Source of the DNA: a virus
Taxonomy: Duplodnaviria > Heunggongvirae > Uroviricota > Caudoviricetes
IMG/VR virus record: IMGVR_UViG_2541047816_000001
Length of the DNA stretch: 38,662 nucleotides
Reading direction: 5' to 3' (one strand)
The notes beneath the pieces were generated by a model, which had not been told where the DNA came from, did no database searches, and saw only the letters and a list, made by a program, of their open reading frames with translations. Numbering within the stretch: the first letter of the stretch is position 1; each line of letters opens with the position of its first letter. Below, in pieces: positions 1-9,809 of this stretch. The translations under genes were made by a program, and so were the position numbers.

Positions 1-1053
1 TTACGGGGTAATGCCAACCGCTGCCGCCACTTTGTCGCCACTTGGCAGCGTTGCCAGAGGATTGAAACGGAGCGCCGTTTCTAGATGATCCGGTGCCAGA
101 TGTGCGTAACGCATAGTCATTTTTATATCGTGGTGTCCGAGAATTTTTTGTAAGGCCAGAATGTTTCCACCCGACATCATGAAGTGCGCCGCAAACGTAT
201 GGCGCAGAACGTGTGTGAGTTGACCGCGAGGGAGCACGATAGACGTTTTTTCCATCACGGATAAAAATTGAAAATAGCAGTCTGTGAAGAAATTGAACCC
301 ATCAAGCGCCATGATCTCTTCATAAAGCTCTTTACTGATAGGGATGCTTCTGTTTTTCTTCCCCTTCGTTCTTACAAAGGTAATTCGGTATTTAGTCACC
401 TGTGATCGGGTAAGATTTATTGCTTCTCGCCAGCGTGCGCCTGTGCTTAAGCATATCTTGACTACCAGTGCCAGAATTGGGTCCTGACGTTTGCAATCAG
501 CCAGCAGTTCAACAATCTGCTCATGGGTAAGCCATGCCATCTCTTTTTCTGCGATGGTGAATTTTCGCATGTTCTCCAGTGGGTTTGGATACGACCATTC
601 GCCCAGGCGGGATAGTTCGCTAAAAACACTACTTAGATAGCTTTGCTCCAGGTTAATGGTGACCGGGCTGGCTCCTTTCTTCCATTTCTCGCTGAAGTAG
701 ATCTCACCTGTCAGGCGTTTATCTCGATAGTGGGCAAACATTTTAGAGGTGAGATTGGTTGCAAGAGGATTGCCTAGAGCGTCAACCATCAGCAGCAATT
801 TGTCATAGACATGCTGTCCAGCAGTCAGAGATTTACCATGTAATTTGAACCATAGCTCAACCACGTCTTTCAGGGTTCGACGATCCACTGATTCGCCCAG
901 CCAGGGCTTTGATTCGGTTTCTTCCATCGTGTGACGCTCAAAAGCCAGAGCTTCGCCTTTGGTGGCGAATTGTTTACGCACACGACGCCCACTTCGTCCG
1001 GCGGGGTAACATTCGCAAAGCCATTTCCCTGTGGTGAGTTTTCGTACTGCCAT
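1..1053 (-). CDS. int: Tyrosine site-specific integrase (P2 Int-like)
   Basis: 350-aa ORF; C-terminal catalytic region HVLRHTFAAHFMMSGG...LGHHDIKMTMRYAHL with conserved R, H-x-x-R and Tyr; position at prophage edge next to the repressor region. Confidence 0.9.
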   Translation of the reverse strand: MAVRKLTTGKWLCECYPAGRSGRRVRKQFATKGEALAFERHTMEETESKPWLGESVDRRTLKDVVELWFKLHGKSLTAGQHVYDKLLLMVDALGNPLATNLTSKMFAHYRDKRLTGEIYFSEKWKKGASPVTINLEQSYLSSVFSELSRLGEWSYPNPLENMRKFTIAEKEMAWLTHEQIVELLADCKRQDPILALVVKICLSTGARWREAINLTRSQVTKYRITFVRTKGKKNRSIPISKELYEEIMALDGFNFFTDCYFQFLSVMEKTSIVLPRGQLTHVLRHTFAAHFMMSGGNILALQKILGHHDIKMTMRYAHLAPDHLETALRFNPLATLPSGDKVAAAVGITP

Positions 1054-1082
1054 AAAAAATGCCCTCCAGTGGAGAGCATTTA

Positions 1083-1102
1083 TACTGTTTTTTTATACAG
1101 TG
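1083..1102. promoter_or_regulatory. LexA-box-like motif TACTGTTTTTTTATACAGTG (CTGT-N8-ACAG) in the int upstream region
   Basis: Seen directly: matches SOS box consensus TACTGT-(AT-rich N8)-ACAGT; lies 30-50 nt upstream of the int start codon on the minus strand. Confidence 0.4.
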
Positions 1103-1143
1103 TCAATGTATGATGATTGGATAACTATACATATGTTATGTGT

Positions 1144-1824
1144 TTAATGCATTTTAGTTACATCTATGTTTTTATTGATTGTCTCTTTGTTACTGGAAAG
1201 TCTTTGTTCTTTTCTTTTAATGTATAACTCCCAACGAATATTATTCATTATGATAGCGTAGATATTAAAAATAAATGTCTTTACTACTAACACTAAGTAA
1301 ATAAGGCTAGTCCCTATAACACAGTATCCAAATTTAATAATTAATTCTTTTATCGATTTTGAATATGGAAATAAATCAATTATATTGCCAATTATTCCAT
1401 CTTTTTGACAAAAGAGAATTATTATTAGATAAATGAAAGTAAACGTAATAAATGAGATGAAAACTTTCATAAATGCCATAAAGTTATATTTTAACGTGGG
1501 CATCTGTGTTTTTTTATGTTGTATTGACATCATCTGAAGAAACATCTCGGGTTTGGATAGTGTTGCAAATATTGTGAAACCAGCAATGAGAAAACCTAAG
1601 GTTGTCACTGCAAAGTTAAAACCAATCAAAGCCCAGTTTCTAATGTCAGATACTAAATGAGACATATCCTTCTCAATAAAAAAAGAGTTTGTTAATAAAA
1701 AAATAGATGCTGTGAGCAAAATGCAAATATGGAATGTACTAATAGTAATCCGTTTGCAGAGCAAGTAAACATCCCAAAGGTTTTTCTCTTTGGTTATTTC
1801 TTTAGCATCTATTTTATTTATCAT
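1144..1824 (-). CDS. Hypothetical integral membrane protein, about 4 predicted TM helices, part of AT-rich moron cassette
   Basis: 226-aa ORF; four long hydrophobic stretches; very low GC (about 30%) versus prophage backbone; start overlaps upstream gene stop by 4 nt. Confidence 0.6.
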   Translation of the reverse strand: MINKIDAKEITKEKNLWDVYLLCKRITISTFHICILLTASIFLLTNSFFIEKDMSHLVSDIRNWALIGFNFAVTTLGFLIAGFTIFATLSKPEMFLQMMSIQHKKTQMPTLKYNFMAFMKVFISFITFTFIYLIIILFCQKDGIIGNIIDLFPYSKSIKELIIKFGYCVIGTSLIYLVLVVKTFIFNIYAIIMNNIRWELYIKRKEQRLSSNKETINKNIDVTKMH

Positions 1825-2849
1825 CGACCAAACCTTTCATATATATTGCTAATAATTCTAATCGTCTTTTGTGAAAGAGAACGGGGTAGAGATATCTTAC
1901 CTTCTTCTACAAGATTTTCATACCGCTCATAACTTTCATTTGCAGCTACTACCGTATCCTTTGATAATTCATTCATCTCACTTAACAAAACAAAGTCATC
2001 ATTGCTACCTTTGATTATATCACCATTGTCATCATATCCTTTAATATTTATTCCTGAATTAGCCAATCTGGTTGCTGATGTGAGTTGTTCTAAAACAGCA
2101 CCATGATTCAAGCCTGAATCGGTGTTTGAAAAGCGAATAGATGTAGAAATACTTCCCATTTCGTCTCCGGCACTTTCAAGTGACTCCCAAAATTCGTCGT
2201 TATCAATTTCTTCTTGATTTGTAGGGAGAAGTTTTACTGAGACATTTTGGATTTTATTAAAATTATCAATAAATTGCTCTAGGCTTTGTTTGTCAGTTAA
2301 CGGCGTTATTCTTAGCTTCGGGCGTTTGATTTCGTTCCGTAAGCTTTTTTTAGTGACTCGAGGTAAGTCAGGGTTTTCTTTGCGTTCTTCTTGTGCGGTT
2401 TCGTATAAATGAGATATGTATTTTTCATATTCTATGTTTAAGAAACACTGACTTGTTGACTGAAAGTTTTGAATTGTGGGAGCACCACTAACTTCCTTGC
2501 AAAGAATTAATCTGTGAGTGTTTAATATTAGAAGAAAGAAAGAGCTCGGGGCTGTTTCAAGCTCTTGATGATCTTCAACCAAATCAGCACCATCAAATAC
2601 TTGTTCTCTGGTTAATAATGTATTCTTAATAATCCGACCTTTAATTCCGAGTACTGGGGGTGTTGCTTCTTCGTCAAGTATGACGCATTCAGTATCAATG
2701 AAAAAGAACTCTGATTTGTCAGATATTCTGCGGATGTTTGCCATCTCCAAAAAAGAGGGGAAAACAATTTCATCATAATAGTCTAGCAAAACATCATCAC
2801 CAAAACGGAGAGTATAATTTCCAAATTCGAGTTTTTTTATAAAATCCAT
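1821..2849 (-). CDS. Hypothetical soluble protein, 342 aa, first gene of AT-rich cassette downstream of the repressor
   Basis: Long ORF with acidic stretches and no motif I recognise; 15 nt downstream of the repressor stop, co-oriented, translationally coupled to the membrane protein gene. Confidence 0.6.
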   Translation of the reverse strand: MDFIKKLEFGNYTLRFGDDVLLDYYDEIVFPSFLEMANIRRISDKSEFFFIDTECVILDEEATPPVLGIKGRIIKNTLLTREQVFDGADLVEDHQELETAPSSFFLLILNTHRLILCKEVSGAPTIQNFQSTSQCFLNIEYEKYISHLYETAQEERKENPDLPRVTKKSLRNEIKRPKLRITPLTDKQSLEQFIDNFNKIQNVSVKLLPTNQEEIDNDEFWESLESAGDEMGSISTSIRFSNTDSGLNHGAVLEQLTSATRLANSGINIKGYDDNGDIIKGSNDDFVLLSEMNELSKDTVVAANESYERYENLVEEGKISLPRSLSQKTIRIISNIYERFGR

Positions 2850-2864
2850 TACTATGCCTCAAGA

Positions 2865-3743
2865 TTAAATAGTACGGTACTGTGAGAAAATTTTGGCAAC
2901 TAATTTTATATCTTCTTTTTCACAATCAAATGTTAAATCATCGTCTGTTACTCGAAGATTGCCTCCAGGTAATAGAAAAATTTGTTTTAACTTGAAATTA
3001 TTTTGGTATTGAACAATCCATCTTCCGTCTTCAACATTAGCTTTATTCATGTGTGCAATATTTATGCAATGTTCGTCTTCAATTGCGAGTAAATCATTAA
3101 AATGAGGAAGCAGGGACTTATCTATCAATAAATGACCAGCATCGAAAATTTGATTGTCAATAAGTTTTACTTTAGGAATTTCTAAAGCTTCACTTTCTTC
3201 GCTTCCAAGTTTTTGCCCGCGCCCAGTTGCTAACCATAAAAGAGAAGTTCTTGTTTCCAACGAGCATCTTATGATCCAGTCAGCTGGGAATGTGTCTCGC
3301 AAGTATCTATTCGCCATTGTGCTTTTAGACACATTCAAATGGTCGGCAAGTTCTTGTCTTGTTTTAAAGCCATACGCTTCCATTAGCCTGTTTATCGCAT
3401 TACGTCCACCTGAATCCAGATTTGGATGGTTCACAATTGGGTTCTCGTTGGTGGTGGCTTTGGGAACATATTGAACCAATGATGCTGGTTCCTCTAATTT
3501 AGCGGGAACTTCGGTATTCTTAGGAAATGGCACGCCTTTTCCGAATGAGAGCCACTCTATAGATGCTCCTGTTTCAATTGCACACTGAATTACCCAGTCA
3601 GCAGGAAATGCGTCACGCATCCAGCGCGTTCCCATAGTACTTGCAGATACATTGAACTGTTCACATAGGGCTTGCCGCGTCTTGAATCCATACGCTTCAA
3701 GCATGCGCGTTATGACTGCCTGTCCTCCGTTTTTGAAATTCAT
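2865..3743 (-). CDS. Immunity repressor, phage 186 CI-like, with tandemly duplicated N-terminal HTH domain
   Basis: Two homologous segments (..RMLEAYGFKTRQALCEQFNVSASTMGTRWMRDAFPADWVIQCAIETGASIEWL.. and ..RLMEAYGFKTRQELADHLNVSKSTMANRYLRDTFPADWIIRCSLETRTSLLWL..) resembling the 186 CI N-terminal domain as I recall it, plus a C-terminal domain; position between int and the Apl/Cox-like gene, transcribed divergently from it. Confidence 0.7.
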   Translation of the reverse strand: MNFKNGGQAVITRMLEAYGFKTRQALCEQFNVSASTMGTRWMRDAFPADWVIQCAIETGASIEWLSFGKGVPFPKNTEVPAKLEEPASLVQYVPKATTNENPIVNHPNLDSGGRNAINRLMEAYGFKTRQELADHLNVSKSTMANRYLRDTFPADWIIRCSLETRTSLLWLATGRGQKLGSEESEALEIPKVKLIDNQIFDAGHLLIDKSLLPHFNDLLAIEDEHCINIAHMNKANVEDGRWIVQYQNNFKLKQIFLLPGGNLRVTDDDLTFDCEKEDIKLVAKIFSQYRTI

Positions 3744-3868: not shown

Positions 3869-4090
3869 ATGACTCCACATATTTCAATCACCTTAGCTGT
3901 TCCATCTGTTTCTATTGAGAAATACAGCGAACTGACTGGCTTATCTATCGACACCATCAATGACATGCTGGCTGATGGACGTCTTATTCGCCATCGTCTC
4001 CGTAAGGATAAAAAGCGAGAAAAGGTGATGATCAATATCGCAGCAATGACTGTTGATGCACTCGCTGAATGCAATTTGAGCATTAACTAG
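3869..4090 (+). CDS. Apl/Cox-like small DNA-binding regulator/excisionase
   Basis: 73-aa ORF from ATG 3869 with GAGGA RBS 10 nt upstream; first early gene divergent from the repressor; basic C-terminus; assignment by position. Confidence 0.5.
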   Translation: MTPHISITLAVPSVSIEKYSELTGLSIDTINDMLADGRLIRHRLRKDKKREKVMINIAAMTVDALAECNLSIN

Positions 4091-4104: not shown

Positions 4105-4632
4105 ATGTCAGAGATGTCGAATATGTTTGATTACCAAGTTTCCAAACATCCACATTTTGATGAAGCCTGTCGTGCATTCGCATTGCGCCACAACCTGGTG
4201 CAACTGGCAGAACGTGCTGGCATGAATGTGCAGATTCTGCGGAACAAGCTGAACCCAGCTCAACCTCATTTATTAACCGCACCAGAAATCTGGCTGCTTA
4301 CCGATCTGACTGAAGATTCAACGCTGGTAGATGGTTTTCTGGCACAGATTCATTGTCTGCCATGTGTACCGATTAATGAGGTGGCAAAAGAGAAACTGCC
4401 ACATTACGTCATGAGTGCAACCGCAGAGATCGGGCGTGTTGCTGCAGGTGCGGTATCTGGCGATGTAAAAACCAGTGCCGGTCGTCGTGATGCCATCAGC
4501 AGCATTAATTCTGTAACACGACTGATGGCGCTGGCGGCTGTTTCATTGCAGGCCCGTTTACAGGCTAATCCTGCGATGGCGAGTGCAGTTGATACCGTGA
4601 CTGGCCTCGGTGCTTCATTCGGTTTGCTGTGA
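4105..4632 (+). CDS. CII-like regulatory protein (186 CII/CP76 family)
   Basis: 175-aa ORF; N-terminal [23 protein letters not shown]... resembles 186 CII as I recall it; position after apl/cox. Confidence 0.55.
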
Positions 4633-9577: not shown

Positions 9578-9597
9578 TACTGTAAATATAAACAGTG
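9578..9597. promoter_or_regulatory. LexA-box-like motif TACTGTAAATATAAACAGTG
   Basis: Seen directly: CTGT-N8-ACAG with TACTGT/ACAGT flanks and AT-rich spacer, in AT-rich intergenic region about 40 nt upstream of a small ORF with strong RBS. Confidence 0.5.
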
Positions 9598-9638
9598 GTT
9601 GTGCATACAGTATTGCTTGTGGTGTCATAGGAGGAAAG

Positions 9639-9809
9639 ATGCAGGACTATTTTTTGGAGTCTTTGAAGCTCCAGCGCATTGATTTTTTTCTTAAGCTTGT
9701 AGCGGCTAGTGAGTGTAGTGATGAAGAGAAGGGGCTGGCTCTGCAGTGGGTTTCTGAGTTGACTGATGAGCTGATGGCGAGAATTCGCGCTCATGAATAC
9801 AACCACTAG
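9639..9809 (+). CDS. Small hypothetical protein (56 aa), possible SOS-controlled antirepressor-type gene
   Basis: ATG preceded by TAGGAGGAAAG RBS; below the 60-aa threshold of the ORF track; function inferred only from position downstream of the LexA-like box. Confidence 0.35.
   Translation: MQDYFLESLKLQRIDFFLKLVAASECSDEEKGLALQWVSELTDELMARIRAHEYNH

What the first reader, a model, noticed from the sequence alone, without database searches (positions are those of the whole stretch)
1054..1110. LexA-box-like motif and SD-sequestering hairpin directly upstream of int
Seen: TACTGTTTTTTTATACAGTG at 1083-1102 fits CTGT-N8-ACAG with the usual TACTGT/ACAGT flanks. On the minus strand a short GC stem (CTCC-ACT-GGAG, extendable) contains the only Shine-Dalgarno-like GGAGG and is followed by T7 and then the int ATG. 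Inference: int may be separated transcriptionally from the upstream cassette and placed under SOS and/or translational control. A perfect match to the 11 fixed positions is unlikely by chance in 38 kb (roughly 0.01 expected).
Basis: partly seen in the sequence, partly recalled or inferred. Interest (0 to 1): 0.35.

Follow-up and report, generated by a model that had tools for sequence, protein, structure and literature searches.

The report
SOS-controlled, insulated promoter for prophage integrase
Just upstream of the integrase gene of this E. coli P2/186-like prophage lies a compact, widely conserved control module: a promoter carrying a binding site for the DNA-damage repressor LexA, plus an RNA hairpin that hides the ribosome-binding site. 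It probably makes integrase inducible by DNA damage and shields it from transcription of the neighbouring cargo genes.

Summary
TACTGTTTTTTTATACAGTG (1083-1102) scores 23.7 bits on a LexA matrix. It is one of two outliers in the window; the other is the expected SOS promoter at 9578-9597. On the int strand it fills the spacer of a promoter: TTGACA, 16 nt, TATAAA. An 11-bp hairpin follows. Its 3' arm holds the GGAGG, then come T6 (not T7) and the int ATG.

In 44 related prophage loci from about 15 enterobacterial genera (Int identity down to 55%), CTG-N10-CAG and the -35 are invariant. The hairpin persists with at least nine different stem sequences. Its 5' arm always ends 13-16 nt after the box, which is the predicted transcription start. 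Int genes that directly abut cI, as in phage 186, have neither feature.

Best reading: int has its own LexA-repressed promoter, and its transcript starts past the anti-SD arm. Read-through from the cI-cargo operon is terminated or translationally masked.

A further inverted repeat (1106-1132) matches the 186 CII site in sequence, spacing and position, suggesting CII activation as at lambda pI.

The module occurs in about 17-20% of complete E. coli genomes, including BL21. I found no published description. No LexA binding, transcription start or expression was measured.

The parts
1..1053 (-). int, a 350-aa tyrosine integrase. Start codon ATG at 1053..1051.
   Evidence: ORF list. PHROG integrase families at E = 1e-74. 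56% identical to phage 186 Int. RefSeq calls it 'phage integrase'.
1054..1059 (-). Run of six T (U6) between the hairpin/SD and the ATG. It would be the terminator tail for read-through transcripts and the SD-to-AUG spacer for int mRNA.
   Evidence: Sequence. Kept in the Escherichia/Klebsiella/Citrobacter clades. Absent in Rahnella, Yersinia, Serratia and Pantoea.
1057..1081 (-). Hairpin. The 5' (anti-SD) arm is 1081..1071, the loop 1070..1068 and the 3' arm 1067..1057. The 3' arm contains the SD GGAGG (1067..1063).
   Evidence: - RNA fold: dG -14.4, z = -5.9.
- At least nine different stem sequences occur in relatives.
- L136 shows a double compensatory change.
- The 5' arm ends 13-16 nt after the box in all clades.
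- Probability that the SD is unpaired: 0.00 in read-through RNA, 0.2-0.8 in RNA starting at 1071.
1079..1084 (-). Predicted -10 hexamer TATAAA, with a 16-nt spacer (alternative: ATAAAT at 1083..1078 with a 17-nt spacer). Predicted start of transcription is about 1072..1070.
   Evidence: Read from the sequence. Relatives carry TAAAAT, TAAATT, TAGAAT or TAATAT at the same place. The consensus scanner did not list it because it demands T at hexamer position 6. The start site is not mapped.
1083..1102 (.). LexA (SOS) box. It reads TACTGTTTTTTTATACAGTG on the + strand and CACTGTATAAAAAAACAGTA on the int strand. It fills the promoter spacer, at about -32..-13.
   Evidence: - for match and chance.
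- 44 related loci carry a site of 15-27 bits starting 47-54 nt before the ATG, against below 7 bits in 30 other int loci.
- CTG and CAGT are invariant columns in the alignment.
1101..1106 (-). Predicted -35 hexamer TTGACA.
   Evidence: Sequence. 'ACATTGA' is (nearly) invariant in 32 aligned relatives.
1106..1132 (.). Inverted repeat ATGTATA-N13-CATACAT on the int strand, 27 bp long. The half-site centres (1129 and 1109) fall at about -58 and -38 of the predicted promoter. It is a candidate binding site for the phage CII activator.
   Evidence: - It is one of only two matches to ATGTWT-N8..24-AWACAT in the window; 0.22 are expected.
- The other match is the pE-type site at the cII start.
- The 186 record annotates ATGTTTG-N13-CAAACAT as the CII site.
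- In 186 the half sites lie at -38 and -58 (PMC6593788).
- The repeat is kept in 41 of 44 loci, with a spacing of 12 or 13 nt.
1144..2849 (-). Two-gene AT-rich cargo cassette (226 aa and 342 aa). It starts 15 nt after cI and ends 62 nt before the hairpin. It is the likely source of read-through towards int.
   Evidence: ORFs. 27-37% GC. No Pfam, PHROG or PADLOC match. Other strains carry other genes in this slot.
2865..3743 (-). [quoted passage not shown]
   Evidence: Pfam Phage_CI_repr (two copies) plus Phage_CI_C. RefSeq annotation.
4123..4149 (.). pE-type CII binding site ATGTTTG-N13-CAAACAT at the start codon of cII. It serves as the internal reference for the repeat at 1106-1132.
   Evidence: Same position and sequence as the annotated 186 site. 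The window's CII is 69% identical to 186 CII, with a near-identical helix-turn-helix stretch.
9578..9612 (+). Second SOS operator of the prophage: two overlapping LexA boxes upstream of a 56-aa ORF (9639..9809). It occupies the position of the 186 p95/tum promoter.
   Evidence: PWM scores of 24.3 and 12.8 bits. Sequence. 186 annotates p95 with its LexA site after gene A.

Best explanation
The segment 1054-1132 is a self-contained control module for int. It has four proposed elements, listed here with what is shown and what is inferred.

**1. A sigma-70 promoter on the int strand.** The hexamers are TTGACA and TATAAA, 16 nt apart, and transcription should start near 1071. This is inferred from sequence and conservation.

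**2. A LexA operator in the promoter spacer.** A high-affinity-type LexA box fills the spacer, so host LexA should keep int off in the lysogen. DNA damage should turn it on, together with the prophage's other LexA-controlled promoter at 9578. The motif and its conservation are shown. Binding is inferred.

**3. An anti-SD hairpin that discriminates between transcripts.** The stretch between the -10 and the start site encodes an anti-SD sequence. Any transcript arriving from upstream (cI plus cargo genes) contains both arms.
- It folds into an 11-bp hairpin followed by U6, which should terminate it.
- If it reads through, its Shine-Dalgarno sequence is buried.
- The promoter's own transcript starts at the loop, lacks the 5' arm and should be translatable.

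The geometry is shown. The start site is inferred.

**4. A CII-like inverted repeat at about -58/-38.** It resembles the phage 186 CII site. It probably lets CII fire this promoter during establishment of lysogeny, as lambda CII does at pI. This is the least secure part.
For: **LexA box**
- It scores 23.7 bits and is one of two outliers in the window.
- The other outlier sits where 186 has its LexA-controlled p95.
- 44 related loci from Escherichia, Klebsiella, Raoultella, Citrobacter, Enterobacter, Kluyvera, Serratia, Yersinia, Rahnella, Ewingella, Pantoea, Mixta, Winslowiella, Brenneria, Acerihabitans and Pectobacterium carry a 15-27 bit site starting 47-54 nt before the ATG. In 30 other int loci the best site scores below 7 bits.
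- In the alignment, CTG, CAGT and the -35 region are invariant, while the box spacer varies.
- Box-positive loci form a deep clade in the Int tree.

**Hairpin**
- Median dG is -13.3 and median z is -4.8 in box loci, against -3.1 and 0.4 in box-less loci (p = 4e-10).
- There are at least nine unrelated stem sequences, and all place the SD in the 3' arm.
- Changes are C-to-U opposite G, plus one C-G to U-A double change. This fits pairing in RNA of the int sense.
- The 5' arm ends 13-16 nt after the G of CAG in every clade. That equals the -10 hexamer plus 7 nt.
- The 186 pE geometry gives the same start site, 38 nt from the proximal half-site centre.
- SD accessibility is 0.00 in read-through RNA against 0.2-0.8 in RNA starting at 1071.
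- Pantoea and Mixta loci have a separate GC-rich terminator upstream of the promoter and still keep the SD hairpin.
- Rahnella loci keep the module although int lies after D-ogr, not after cI.

**CII-like repeat**

**Contrast with the textbook case**
- In 186, cI and int overlap by 1 nt, and no box is present.
Against: - **Nothing was measured.** There is no transcription start, LexA binding or expression data.
- **The -10 is imperfect.** TATAAA lacks the usual T at its last position.
- **A tight LexA operator raises a question.** How is Int made after infection of an undamaged cell?
- **SD release is context dependent.** With some 3' contexts the short transcript still pairs its SD to downstream coding sequence (probability unpaired 0.2).
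- **Rahnella-type leaders may keep a stem.** Part of the 5' arm could remain in the transcript.
- **The U run is not conserved outside the Escherichia-like clades.** Termination is therefore not the universal role.
- **CII site spacing differs.** It is 12 nt in about half of the loci, whereas all pE sites have 13. I recall, unverified, that 186 CII is sensitive to 1-bp changes in spacing.
- **Half-site sequences do not track each phage's own pE site.** The window has ATGTATA/CATACAT at int and ATGTTTG/CAAACAT at pE.
- **The promoter has a consensus -35.** That is unlike activator-dependent pE.
Confidence: 0.7

Rival explanations
1. The LexA-controlled promoter is real, but its transcript starts upstream of the 5' arm. 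The hairpin is then part of the int mRNA itself. It would act as a built-in attenuator/terminator, translational damper or 5' stabiliser that keeps Int low even when LexA is gone.
For: The start site is only predicted. In Rahnella-type leaders the 5' arm reaches 16 nt past the box, so a start at the usual distance would leave a 5-6 bp stem. The short transcript is still partly paired in some contexts. Integrases are typically made in small amounts (general knowledge).
Against: The 5' arm begins inside or 1-2 nt after the -10 hexamer in most clades and ends at 13-16 nt. A start upstream of the arm would therefore need to lie within 0-3 nt of the -10, which is not how sigma-70 promoters fire. 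Two independent rulers give a start at 1070-1072: -10 plus 7 nt, and the 186 pE geometry.
Confidence: 0.17
2. The hairpin plus T6 is simply the intrinsic terminator of the cI-cargo operon. Inclusion of the SD is incidental. The palindrome is a chance or relic sequence with no regulatory role.
For: The hairpin has a canonical terminator shape in the window. It lies 62 nt after the last cargo gene.
Against: CTG-N10-CAG and the -35 are invariant across genera while neighbouring bases vary. The hairpin persists without a U run in Rahnella, Yersinia, Serratia and Pantoea. It also persists where a separate terminator already precedes the promoter. Hairpin and box co-occur strictly. The chance expectation for the box is about 0.01.
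Confidence: 0.04
3. The 16-bp palindrome is the operator of a phage-encoded regulator rather than of host LexA.
For: Palindromes in promoter spacers are typical operators for many repressors. No binding data exist.
Against: The conserved positions are exactly those LexA reads (CTG and CAG, 10 apart, with an A/T-rich spacer). The site scores above the median of recalled E. coli sites. The same motif guards the p95-like promoter in this phage and in 186. The motif is kept although the CI repressors of the relatives differ: 292, 218 and about 190 aa types. A Vibrio P2-like phage has a perfect LexA box before int in another layout.
Confidence: 0.04
4. This rival concerns the sub-claim only. The upstream inverted repeat (1106-1132) is not a CII site. 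It could be a site for another protein, or a sequence kept because cargo cassettes are exchanged by recombination at this border.
For: Spacing is 12 nt in about half of the loci, whereas every pE site has 13. The half sites differ from the phage's own pE site. The promoter already has a consensus -35. The homology breakpoints between cassette variants fall in or next to the repeat.
Against: The repeat is one of only two matches in the window, and the other is the bona fide pE position. It has the same 27-bp span in the window and the same distance to the -10 as in 186 pE, namely 21 nt. The left half site is retained even where everything between and beyond it has been replaced. ATGTATG occurs in natural pE-type sites of Pectobacterium, Brenneria and Rahnella phages.
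Confidence: 0.45

Closest known systems
Integron integrase promoters (PintI) repressed by LexA (Guerin et al. 2009, from my own knowledge; Cambray et al. 2011, PMC3108266)
   Same: A tyrosine recombinase gene has a CTGT-N8-ACAG box overlapping its own promoter, so recombination is licensed by the SOS response. The box is conserved across many hosts.
   Different: The element is a prophage integrase of the P2/186 lineage, not an integron. The box lies in the spacer of a promoter that also carries an anti-SD hairpin and a CII-like repeat. The Int proteins are not close relatives of IntI.
Coliphage 186 SOS promoter p95 (tum) and establishment promoter pE
   Same: Same phage lineage: CII is 69% and Int 56% identical. 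The same LexA motif sits at the p95-like position. The same CII half-site motif, spacing and -38/-58 placement apply.
   Different: In 186, int has no promoter of its own. It overlaps cI by 1 nt and is read from pL/pE. Here int is cut off from cI and carries LexA and CII-like sites itself. The LexA-controlled gene at 9639 is not a Tum homologue.
Lambda pI, the CII-activated int promoter (textbook; cited in PMC7708051)
   Same: A dedicated int promoter appears to be activated by the lysogeny-establishment factor. This would separate Int supply for integration from the repressor operon.
   Different: 186-type CII is unrelated to lambda CII. Lambda pI has no LexA box. Lambda limits Int from read-through by sib retroregulation at the 3' end, not by a 5' anti-SD hairpin.
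IS10/Tn10 'fold-back inhibition' and similar devices in other IS elements that block activation by outside transcription (Davis, Simons and Kleckner 1985, from my own knowledge)
   Same: The element's own promoter fires inside a potential hairpin. Only transcripts coming from outside carry the 5' arm that buries the ribosome-binding site of the recombinase gene.
   Different: This is a transposase of an insertion sequence, not a phage integrase. There is no LexA box in IS10 (Tn5 transposase does have one, from my own knowledge). Here the hairpin doubles as an intrinsic terminator in the E. coli clade.
KplE1 intS, an integrase gene with its own tightly regulated promoter (Panis et al. 2010, PMC2951348)
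   Same: Integrase transcription is uncoupled from both the repressor and the excisionase, with a dedicated regulated promoter.
   Different: intS is controlled by IntS and TorI binding at attL, not by LexA. The phage family is different.
[quoted passage not shown] 2014, PMC3998124)
   Same: It is a precedent that some phage integrase promoters carry LexA sites that LexA binds in vitro.
   Different: It has the Firmicutes-type LexA motif and was tested with B. subtilis LexA. It is a single site, with no conserved module, hairpin or second regulator described.

Membership tests
Gammaproteobacterial LexA (SOS) box | 16-bp palindrome CTGT-N8-ACAG with an A/T-rich centre and TA/CA flanks | tested here: met
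   TACTGTTTTTTTATACAGTG at 1083-1102.
Gammaproteobacterial LexA (SOS) box | Matrix score within the range of proven E. coli sites and above the genomic background | tested here: met
   23.7 bits, against a training median of 20.5 and minimum of 12.7. The maximum in 100 shuffles is 22.0. The training list was recalled from memory.
Gammaproteobacterial LexA (SOS) box | Overlaps the core promoter of the regulated gene | tested here: inconclusive
   It lies between a perfect -35 and a 5/6 -10 on the int strand. The promoter is predicted, not mapped.
Gammaproteobacterial LexA (SOS) box | Conserved at the orthologous position in other hosts that use the same LexA motif | tested here: met
   44 loci score 15-27 bits at a site starting 47-54 nt before the ATG. 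CTG and CAGT are invariant.
Gammaproteobacterial LexA (SOS) box | Bound by LexA, with the gene induced by DNA damage in a lexA- and recA-dependent way | not testable with these tools
   Needs EMSA or footprinting and expression assays.
Intrinsic (rho-independent) terminator | G+C-rich stem, short loop, followed directly by a run of U | tested here: met
   11-bp stem, 3-nt loop and U6 in the window. The scanner missed it because the stem extends into the T run.
Intrinsic (rho-independent) terminator | The U run is conserved with the hairpin in relatives | tested here: not met
   It is kept in the Escherichia/Klebsiella/Citrobacter clades. It is absent in Rahnella, Yersinia, Serratia, Pantoea and Brenneria, which keep the hairpin.
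RBS-masking hairpin that blocks read-through activation (IS10-type fold-back inhibition) | The 3' arm covers the Shine-Dalgarno sequence of the recombinase gene | tested here: met
   GGAGG, GAGGG or AGGGGG lies in the 3' arm in all hairpin classes. Probability unpaired is 0.00 in read-through RNA.
RBS-masking hairpin that blocks read-through activation (IS10-type fold-back inhibition) | The gene's own promoter starts transcription downstream of the 5' arm | tested here: inconclusive
   The 5' arm ends 13-16 nt after the box in all clades, which is the predicted +1. No start site has been mapped.
186-type CII-activated promoter (pE-like) | Two inverted 7-bp half sites (ATGTTTG type), 20 bp centre to centre | tested here: inconclusive
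   The window has ATGTATA-N13-CATACAT with correct spacing. About half of the relatives have N12, whereas all pE sites have N13.
186-type CII-activated promoter (pE-like) | Half sites centred at -38 and -58 of the start site | tested here: inconclusive
   The centres 1109 and 1129 give +1 = 1071, which agrees with the -10 rule. The distance from the half site to the -10 is 21 nt, as in 186 pE. The start site is predicted only.
186-type CII-activated promoter (pE-like) | Negligible basal activity, with a poor -35 that needs the activator | tested here: not met
   P_int has a consensus TTGACA. 186 pE has no such hexamer.

The most novel reading that the evidence does not exclude
The int gene of a large branch of P2/186-like prophages is run by a three-input module packed into about 80 bp.

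- CII switches it on for integration.
- LexA holds it off in the lysogen and releases it for excision.
- An anti-SD sequence placed between the -10 and +1 makes Int synthesis blind to any transcription entering from upstream.

That insulation would be what allows the cI-int junction to serve as a freely exchangeable slot for cargo and defence genes expressed with cI. The module occurs in about a fifth of E. coli genomes, including BL21.
Probability: 0.35. Interest if true: 0.7.

Novelty: new variant of a known kind. Interest (0 to 1): 0.55.

Why it matters
**It departs from the accepted picture.** For P2 and 186, int is thought to ride on the repressor transcript (PMC2951348). Here a large, widespread branch of the same phage group has rewired int to its own SOS-controlled promoter.

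**Consequences if true:**
- Int supply would be timed with induction, so it need not be made continuously in the lysogen.
- It would be a second clear case, after integrons, of LexA licensing a tyrosine recombinase.
- It would explain how foreign cargo or defence genes can sit between cI and int without disturbing Int levels.

**It is easy to test.** The module is present in laboratory E. coli B strains (BL21), so start-site mapping, LexA binding and CII activation can be checked directly.

**A possible general design.** Placing the anti-SD between the -10 and +1 may be a compact way to make a gene respond only to its own promoter.

Tried and rejected
- **Consensus scanner.** It listed neither the promoter nor the hairpin. 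Its rules demand T at -10 position 6, and it counts the tail after the fully extended stem. Both features were therefore read and folded directly.
- **Rfam.** There were only two sub-threshold hits, Phe_leader and STnc100. These look like chance, so no known RNA family is involved.
- **Chance palindrome.** Rejected on the shuffles and on conservation.
- **Module as a by-product of cassette insertion.** Rejected. L005 and BL21 have only a tiny ORF between cI and the module. Rahnella has int after ogr and still keeps the module.
- **Upstream repeat as an RNA hairpin or terminator.** Rejected. The 12-13 nt between the arms are not complementary in most alleles, and the stem is A/T only.
- **IHF, 186 Int arm-type (YAYCGCCAYTY) or Ogr-type (TGT-N12-ACA) sites for the repeat.** They do not fit by eye.
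- **Co-variation between each phage's pE site and its P_int repeat.** No clean signal was seen by inspecting the sites.
- **The 56-aa ORF after the second LexA box as a Tum homologue.** No similarity was found.
- **Cargo genes as known defence proteins.** There was no PADLOC, PHROG or Pfam hit.
- **Literature.** Seven searches and six papers read found no description of a LexA box or own promoter for P2/186-type int. The library lacks most subscription journals.
- **Formal covariation counting on one alignment.** Not attempted, because the hairpins differ in length and loop size. Per-sequence folds against shuffles were used instead.
Full report
**Context.** The window is a P2/186-like prophage of E. 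coli. Its first 4.2 kb are 100% identical to strain GmF052, and it is inserted next to rcdA/ybjJ. On the minus strand the gene order is cI (2865..3743), two AT-rich genes of unknown function (1821..2849 and 1144..1824), then int (1..1053). On the plus strand come a Cox/Apl-like gene, cII (69% identical to 186 CII), replication genes and the late genes. Int is 56% identical to 186 Int.

**Checking the observation.** The motif is there as described: TACTGTTTTTTTATACAGTG at 1083-1102.
- CTGT-N8-ACAG occurs only twice in the window, against 0.47 expected.
- The longer TACTGT-N8-ACAGT matches exactly only at the same two places.
- I built a LexA weight matrix from 27 E. coli sites recalled from memory. 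It gives 24.3 bits at 9578-9597 and 23.7 bits at 1083-1102. The third best in the window is 12.8 bits, the training median is 20.5, and no shuffle of 100 exceeds 22.0.
- The 9578 site precedes a small ORF right after the replication gene. That is where phage 186 has its annotated LexA-controlled promoter p95, so it serves as an internal positive control.

The hairpin is also real and larger than described. It reads AAAUGCUCUCC-ACU-GGAGGGCAUUU, with 11 pairs, dG -14.4 and z = -5.9. GGAGG lies in the 3' arm, followed by six T (not seven) and the ATG.

Read on the int strand, the region is:

ATGTATA-N13-CATACAT-TGACA-CTGTATAAAAAAACAG-TATAAA-TGCTCTCC-ACT-GGAGGGCATTTTTT-ATG

- The LexA box fills the 16-nt spacer between a perfect -35 (TTGACA, 1106..1101) and a 5/6 -10 (TATAAA, 1084..1079).
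- The consensus scanner skipped this promoter because it insists on T at the last -10 position. It skipped the hairpin because the stem runs into the T tract.

**Comparative evidence for the box and promoter.**
- I fetched 77 int loci from species-representative genomes, plus E. coli, Klebsiella phage, BL21 and 80 viral-contig loci.
- Scores split cleanly into two groups. Forty-four related loci have a site of 15-27 bits starting 47-54 nt before the int ATG. Thirty loci have nothing above 7 bits.
- The positive loci span Escherichia, Klebsiella, Raoultella, Citrobacter, Enterobacter, Kluyvera, Serratia, Yersinia, Rahnella, Ewingella, Pantoea, Mixta, Winslowiella, Brenneria, Acerihabitans and one Pectobacterium. 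Int identity goes down to about 55%.
- In a 32-sequence alignment the invariant columns are A.AC.TT.A (the -35 region), CTG, CAGT and the ATG. The ten bases between CTG and CAG vary freely. That is the footprint expected of a LexA operator inside a promoter.
- Box-positive loci form a deep clade in the Int tree, with a few box-less sub-branches.
- Box-negative loci include the 186 arrangement, where the C-terminus of cI runs straight into int. [quoted passage not shown]
- A Vibrio P2-like phage (ValB1MD-2) has a perfect TACTGTATATAAAAACAGTA 15-34 nt before its int in a different layout. LexA control of int may therefore have arisen more than once in this phage family.

**Comparative evidence for the hairpin.**
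- Hairpin and box co-occur. For the last 34 nt before the ATG, box loci have median dG -13.3 and z -4.8, with 30 of 38 unique leaders at z < -3. Box-less loci have -3.1 and 0.4, with 0 of 28 (Mann-Whitney p = 4e-10).
- The stems are unrelated in sequence between clades. Examples are GCTCTCC/GGAGGGC, AGCCCTC/GAGGGCT, CTCTCCTAA/TTAGGAGAG, TGTAGCCC/GGGCTACA, ACCCCCTT/AAGGGGGT, CACATTCTC/GAGAATGTG, TCCTCCATT/AATGGAGGA, CCCCTT/AAGGGG and ACAGTCCTC/GGGGGCTGT. All place the purine-rich SD in the 3' arm.
- Within clades the changes are C-to-T opposite G. One allele, AGTCCTC/GAGGACT, carries a double compensatory change. This fits pairing in RNA of the int sense.
- The U run is present only in the Escherichia-like clades. 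Pantoea and Mixta loci have a separate GC-rich terminator upstream of the promoter and still keep the SD hairpin. Termination therefore cannot be the common function, whereas SD masking can.

**Geometry.**
- In every clade the last base of the 5' arm lies 13-16 nt after the G of CAG, whatever the stem sequence. With the -10 hexamer starting right after CAG, the usual start (the seventh base after the hexamer) falls at 13-14.
- The anti-SD arm therefore occupies the stretch between the -10 and +1, and the loop begins at about +1. In the window this puts the start at 1072-1070.
- A transcript starting there lacks the 5' arm. A transcript entering from cI and the cargo genes has both arms.
- Folding bears this out in relative terms. 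The probability that GGAGG is unpaired is 0.00 in read-through RNA with every 3' end tried. It is 0.2-0.8 in RNA starting at 1071, depending on how much coding sequence is included.
- The closest analogy I know is the protection of IS10 transposase against outside transcription (from my own knowledge).

**A third element.**
- The alignment shows a conserved ATGTWTG about 20 bp upstream of a conserved CAWACAT that abuts the -35.
- ATGTWT-N8..24-AWACAT matches only twice in the window, against 0.22 expected. One match is here (1106-1132). The other is at 4123-4149, the first codons of cII. Both have the same 27-bp span.
- The 186 GenBank record annotates exactly that second position as the CII binding site that activates pE. 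Its sequence there is ATGTTTG-N13-CAAACAT.
- CII half sites are centred at -38 and -58 of pE (PMC6593788). Applying that ruler to the int repeat (centres 1109 and 1129) gives a start at 1071, the same as the -10 rule. The distance from the proximal half site to the -10 is 21 nt in both promoters.
- The left half site is retained in E. coli alleles in which everything between and beyond it has been replaced.
- ATGTATG occurs in natural pE-type sites of Pectobacterium, Brenneria and Rahnella phages.
- Against this reading:
  - About half of the int repeats have 12 rather than 13 nt between half sites, while all pE sites have 13.
  - The half sites do not track each phage's own pE.
  - The int promoter has a consensus -35, unlike pE.
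- I rate CII binding as somewhat better than even.

**Proposed mechanism.**
- *Shown:* the motifs, their significance, their conservation, and the fixed geometry of box, hexamers and hairpin.
- *Inferred:*
  1. In the lysogen LexA occupies the spacer and silences P_int. Transcripts of the cI-cargo operon end at the hairpin-U6 or, if they pass, cannot be translated into Int.
  2. On DNA damage LexA is cleaved. The promoter at 9578 and P_int then fire together. P_int RNA starts at the loop and has a free SD 9 nt before the AUG. Int joins the Cox/Apl-like excisionase made from the derepressed lytic promoter.
  3. After infection, CII made from the early transcript may boost P_int to supply Int for integration, as lambda CII does at pI.
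- *Open question:* how much P_int can fire in the presence of LexA after infection of an undamaged cell.

**Distribution.**
- A 116-bp query covering the module finds 1121 of 5426 complete E. coli genomes, 913 of them over at least 80% of its length.
- These include BL21 and other B strains, where the sequence is ATGTATG-N12-CATACATTGACACTGGTTATACATACAGTAAAAATGCTCTCTACTGGAGGGCATTTTTTATG.
- The slot between cI and the module holds different genes in different strains. Examples are this cassette, an AAA ATPase with a DUF4276 protein, other pairs, or a 63-aa ORF.

**Novelty.**
- LexA-controlled recombinase promoters are known for integrons (PMC3108266).
- A LexA-bound site before one Firmicutes-type phage integrase has been reported (PMC3998124).
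- Seven searches and six papers gave no description of this module for P2/186-type phages. The library misses most subscription journals.
- I class it as a new variant of a known kind.

Noticed in passing
window 1144-2849 (- strand): A two-gene cassette (226-aa membrane-like protein and 342-aa protein) sits between cI and the int promoter. It is 27-37% GC, against about 47% in int. It has no Pfam, PHROG or PADLOC match. Other E. coli carry different gene pairs in the same slot, for example an AAA ATPase with a DUF4276 protein. It looks like a cargo or defence hotspot holding an uncharacterised system.
   Followed up: partly
window 9578-9612 and 9639-9809 (+ strand): Two overlapping LexA boxes (24.3 and 12.8 bits) precede a 56-aa ORF (PHROG 698, unknown function). 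The ORF lies right after the replication gene, where 186 has p95/tum, but it shows no similarity to Tum. It may be a non-homologous SOS-controlled antirepressor.
   Followed up: partly
window 2865-3743 (- strand): The CI repressor is 292 aa. It carries two tandem copies of the Phage_CI_repr helix-turn-helix domain before the CI C-terminal domain. Related prophages have 218-aa or about 190-aa CI proteins at the same place.
   Followed up: no
window 4123-4149: ATGTTTG-N13-CAAACAT lies exactly at the cII start codon. It is equivalent to the annotated CII site of 186 pE. Wherever cII lies within the fetched flank, a pE-type site was found and it always has N13; a few loci gave no match.
   Followed up: yes
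L034 3570-4001 (Rahnella rivi) and other Rahnella/Ewingella loci: Here int lies downstream of tail gene D and an ogr-like zinc-finger gene rather than downstream of cI, yet it keeps the whole module. A second repeat, ATGTATG-N13-CATACAA, sits just upstream of ogr. This hints that the same factor may also act near the late-gene activator.
   Followed up: partly
L165 300-362 (Vibrio phage ValB1MD-2, Peduoviridae): A perfect TACTGTATATAAAAACAGTA lies 15-34 nt before the int ATG, in a layout different from the enterobacterial module. LexA control of int may be more general among P2-like phages.
   Followed up: no
L071 about 3880-4000 (Kosakonia arachidis); L018 (Dryocola): These are decayed versions of the module. 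The left half of the LexA box is lost or altered and the hairpin is shortened. They look like prophages in decay.
   Followed up: no
L083 (E. coli BL21-Gold(DE3)) 3480-3563: The defective P2-like prophage of E. coli B strains carries an intact copy of the module next to rcdA/ybjJ. This gives a convenient laboratory strain for testing it.
   Followed up: partly
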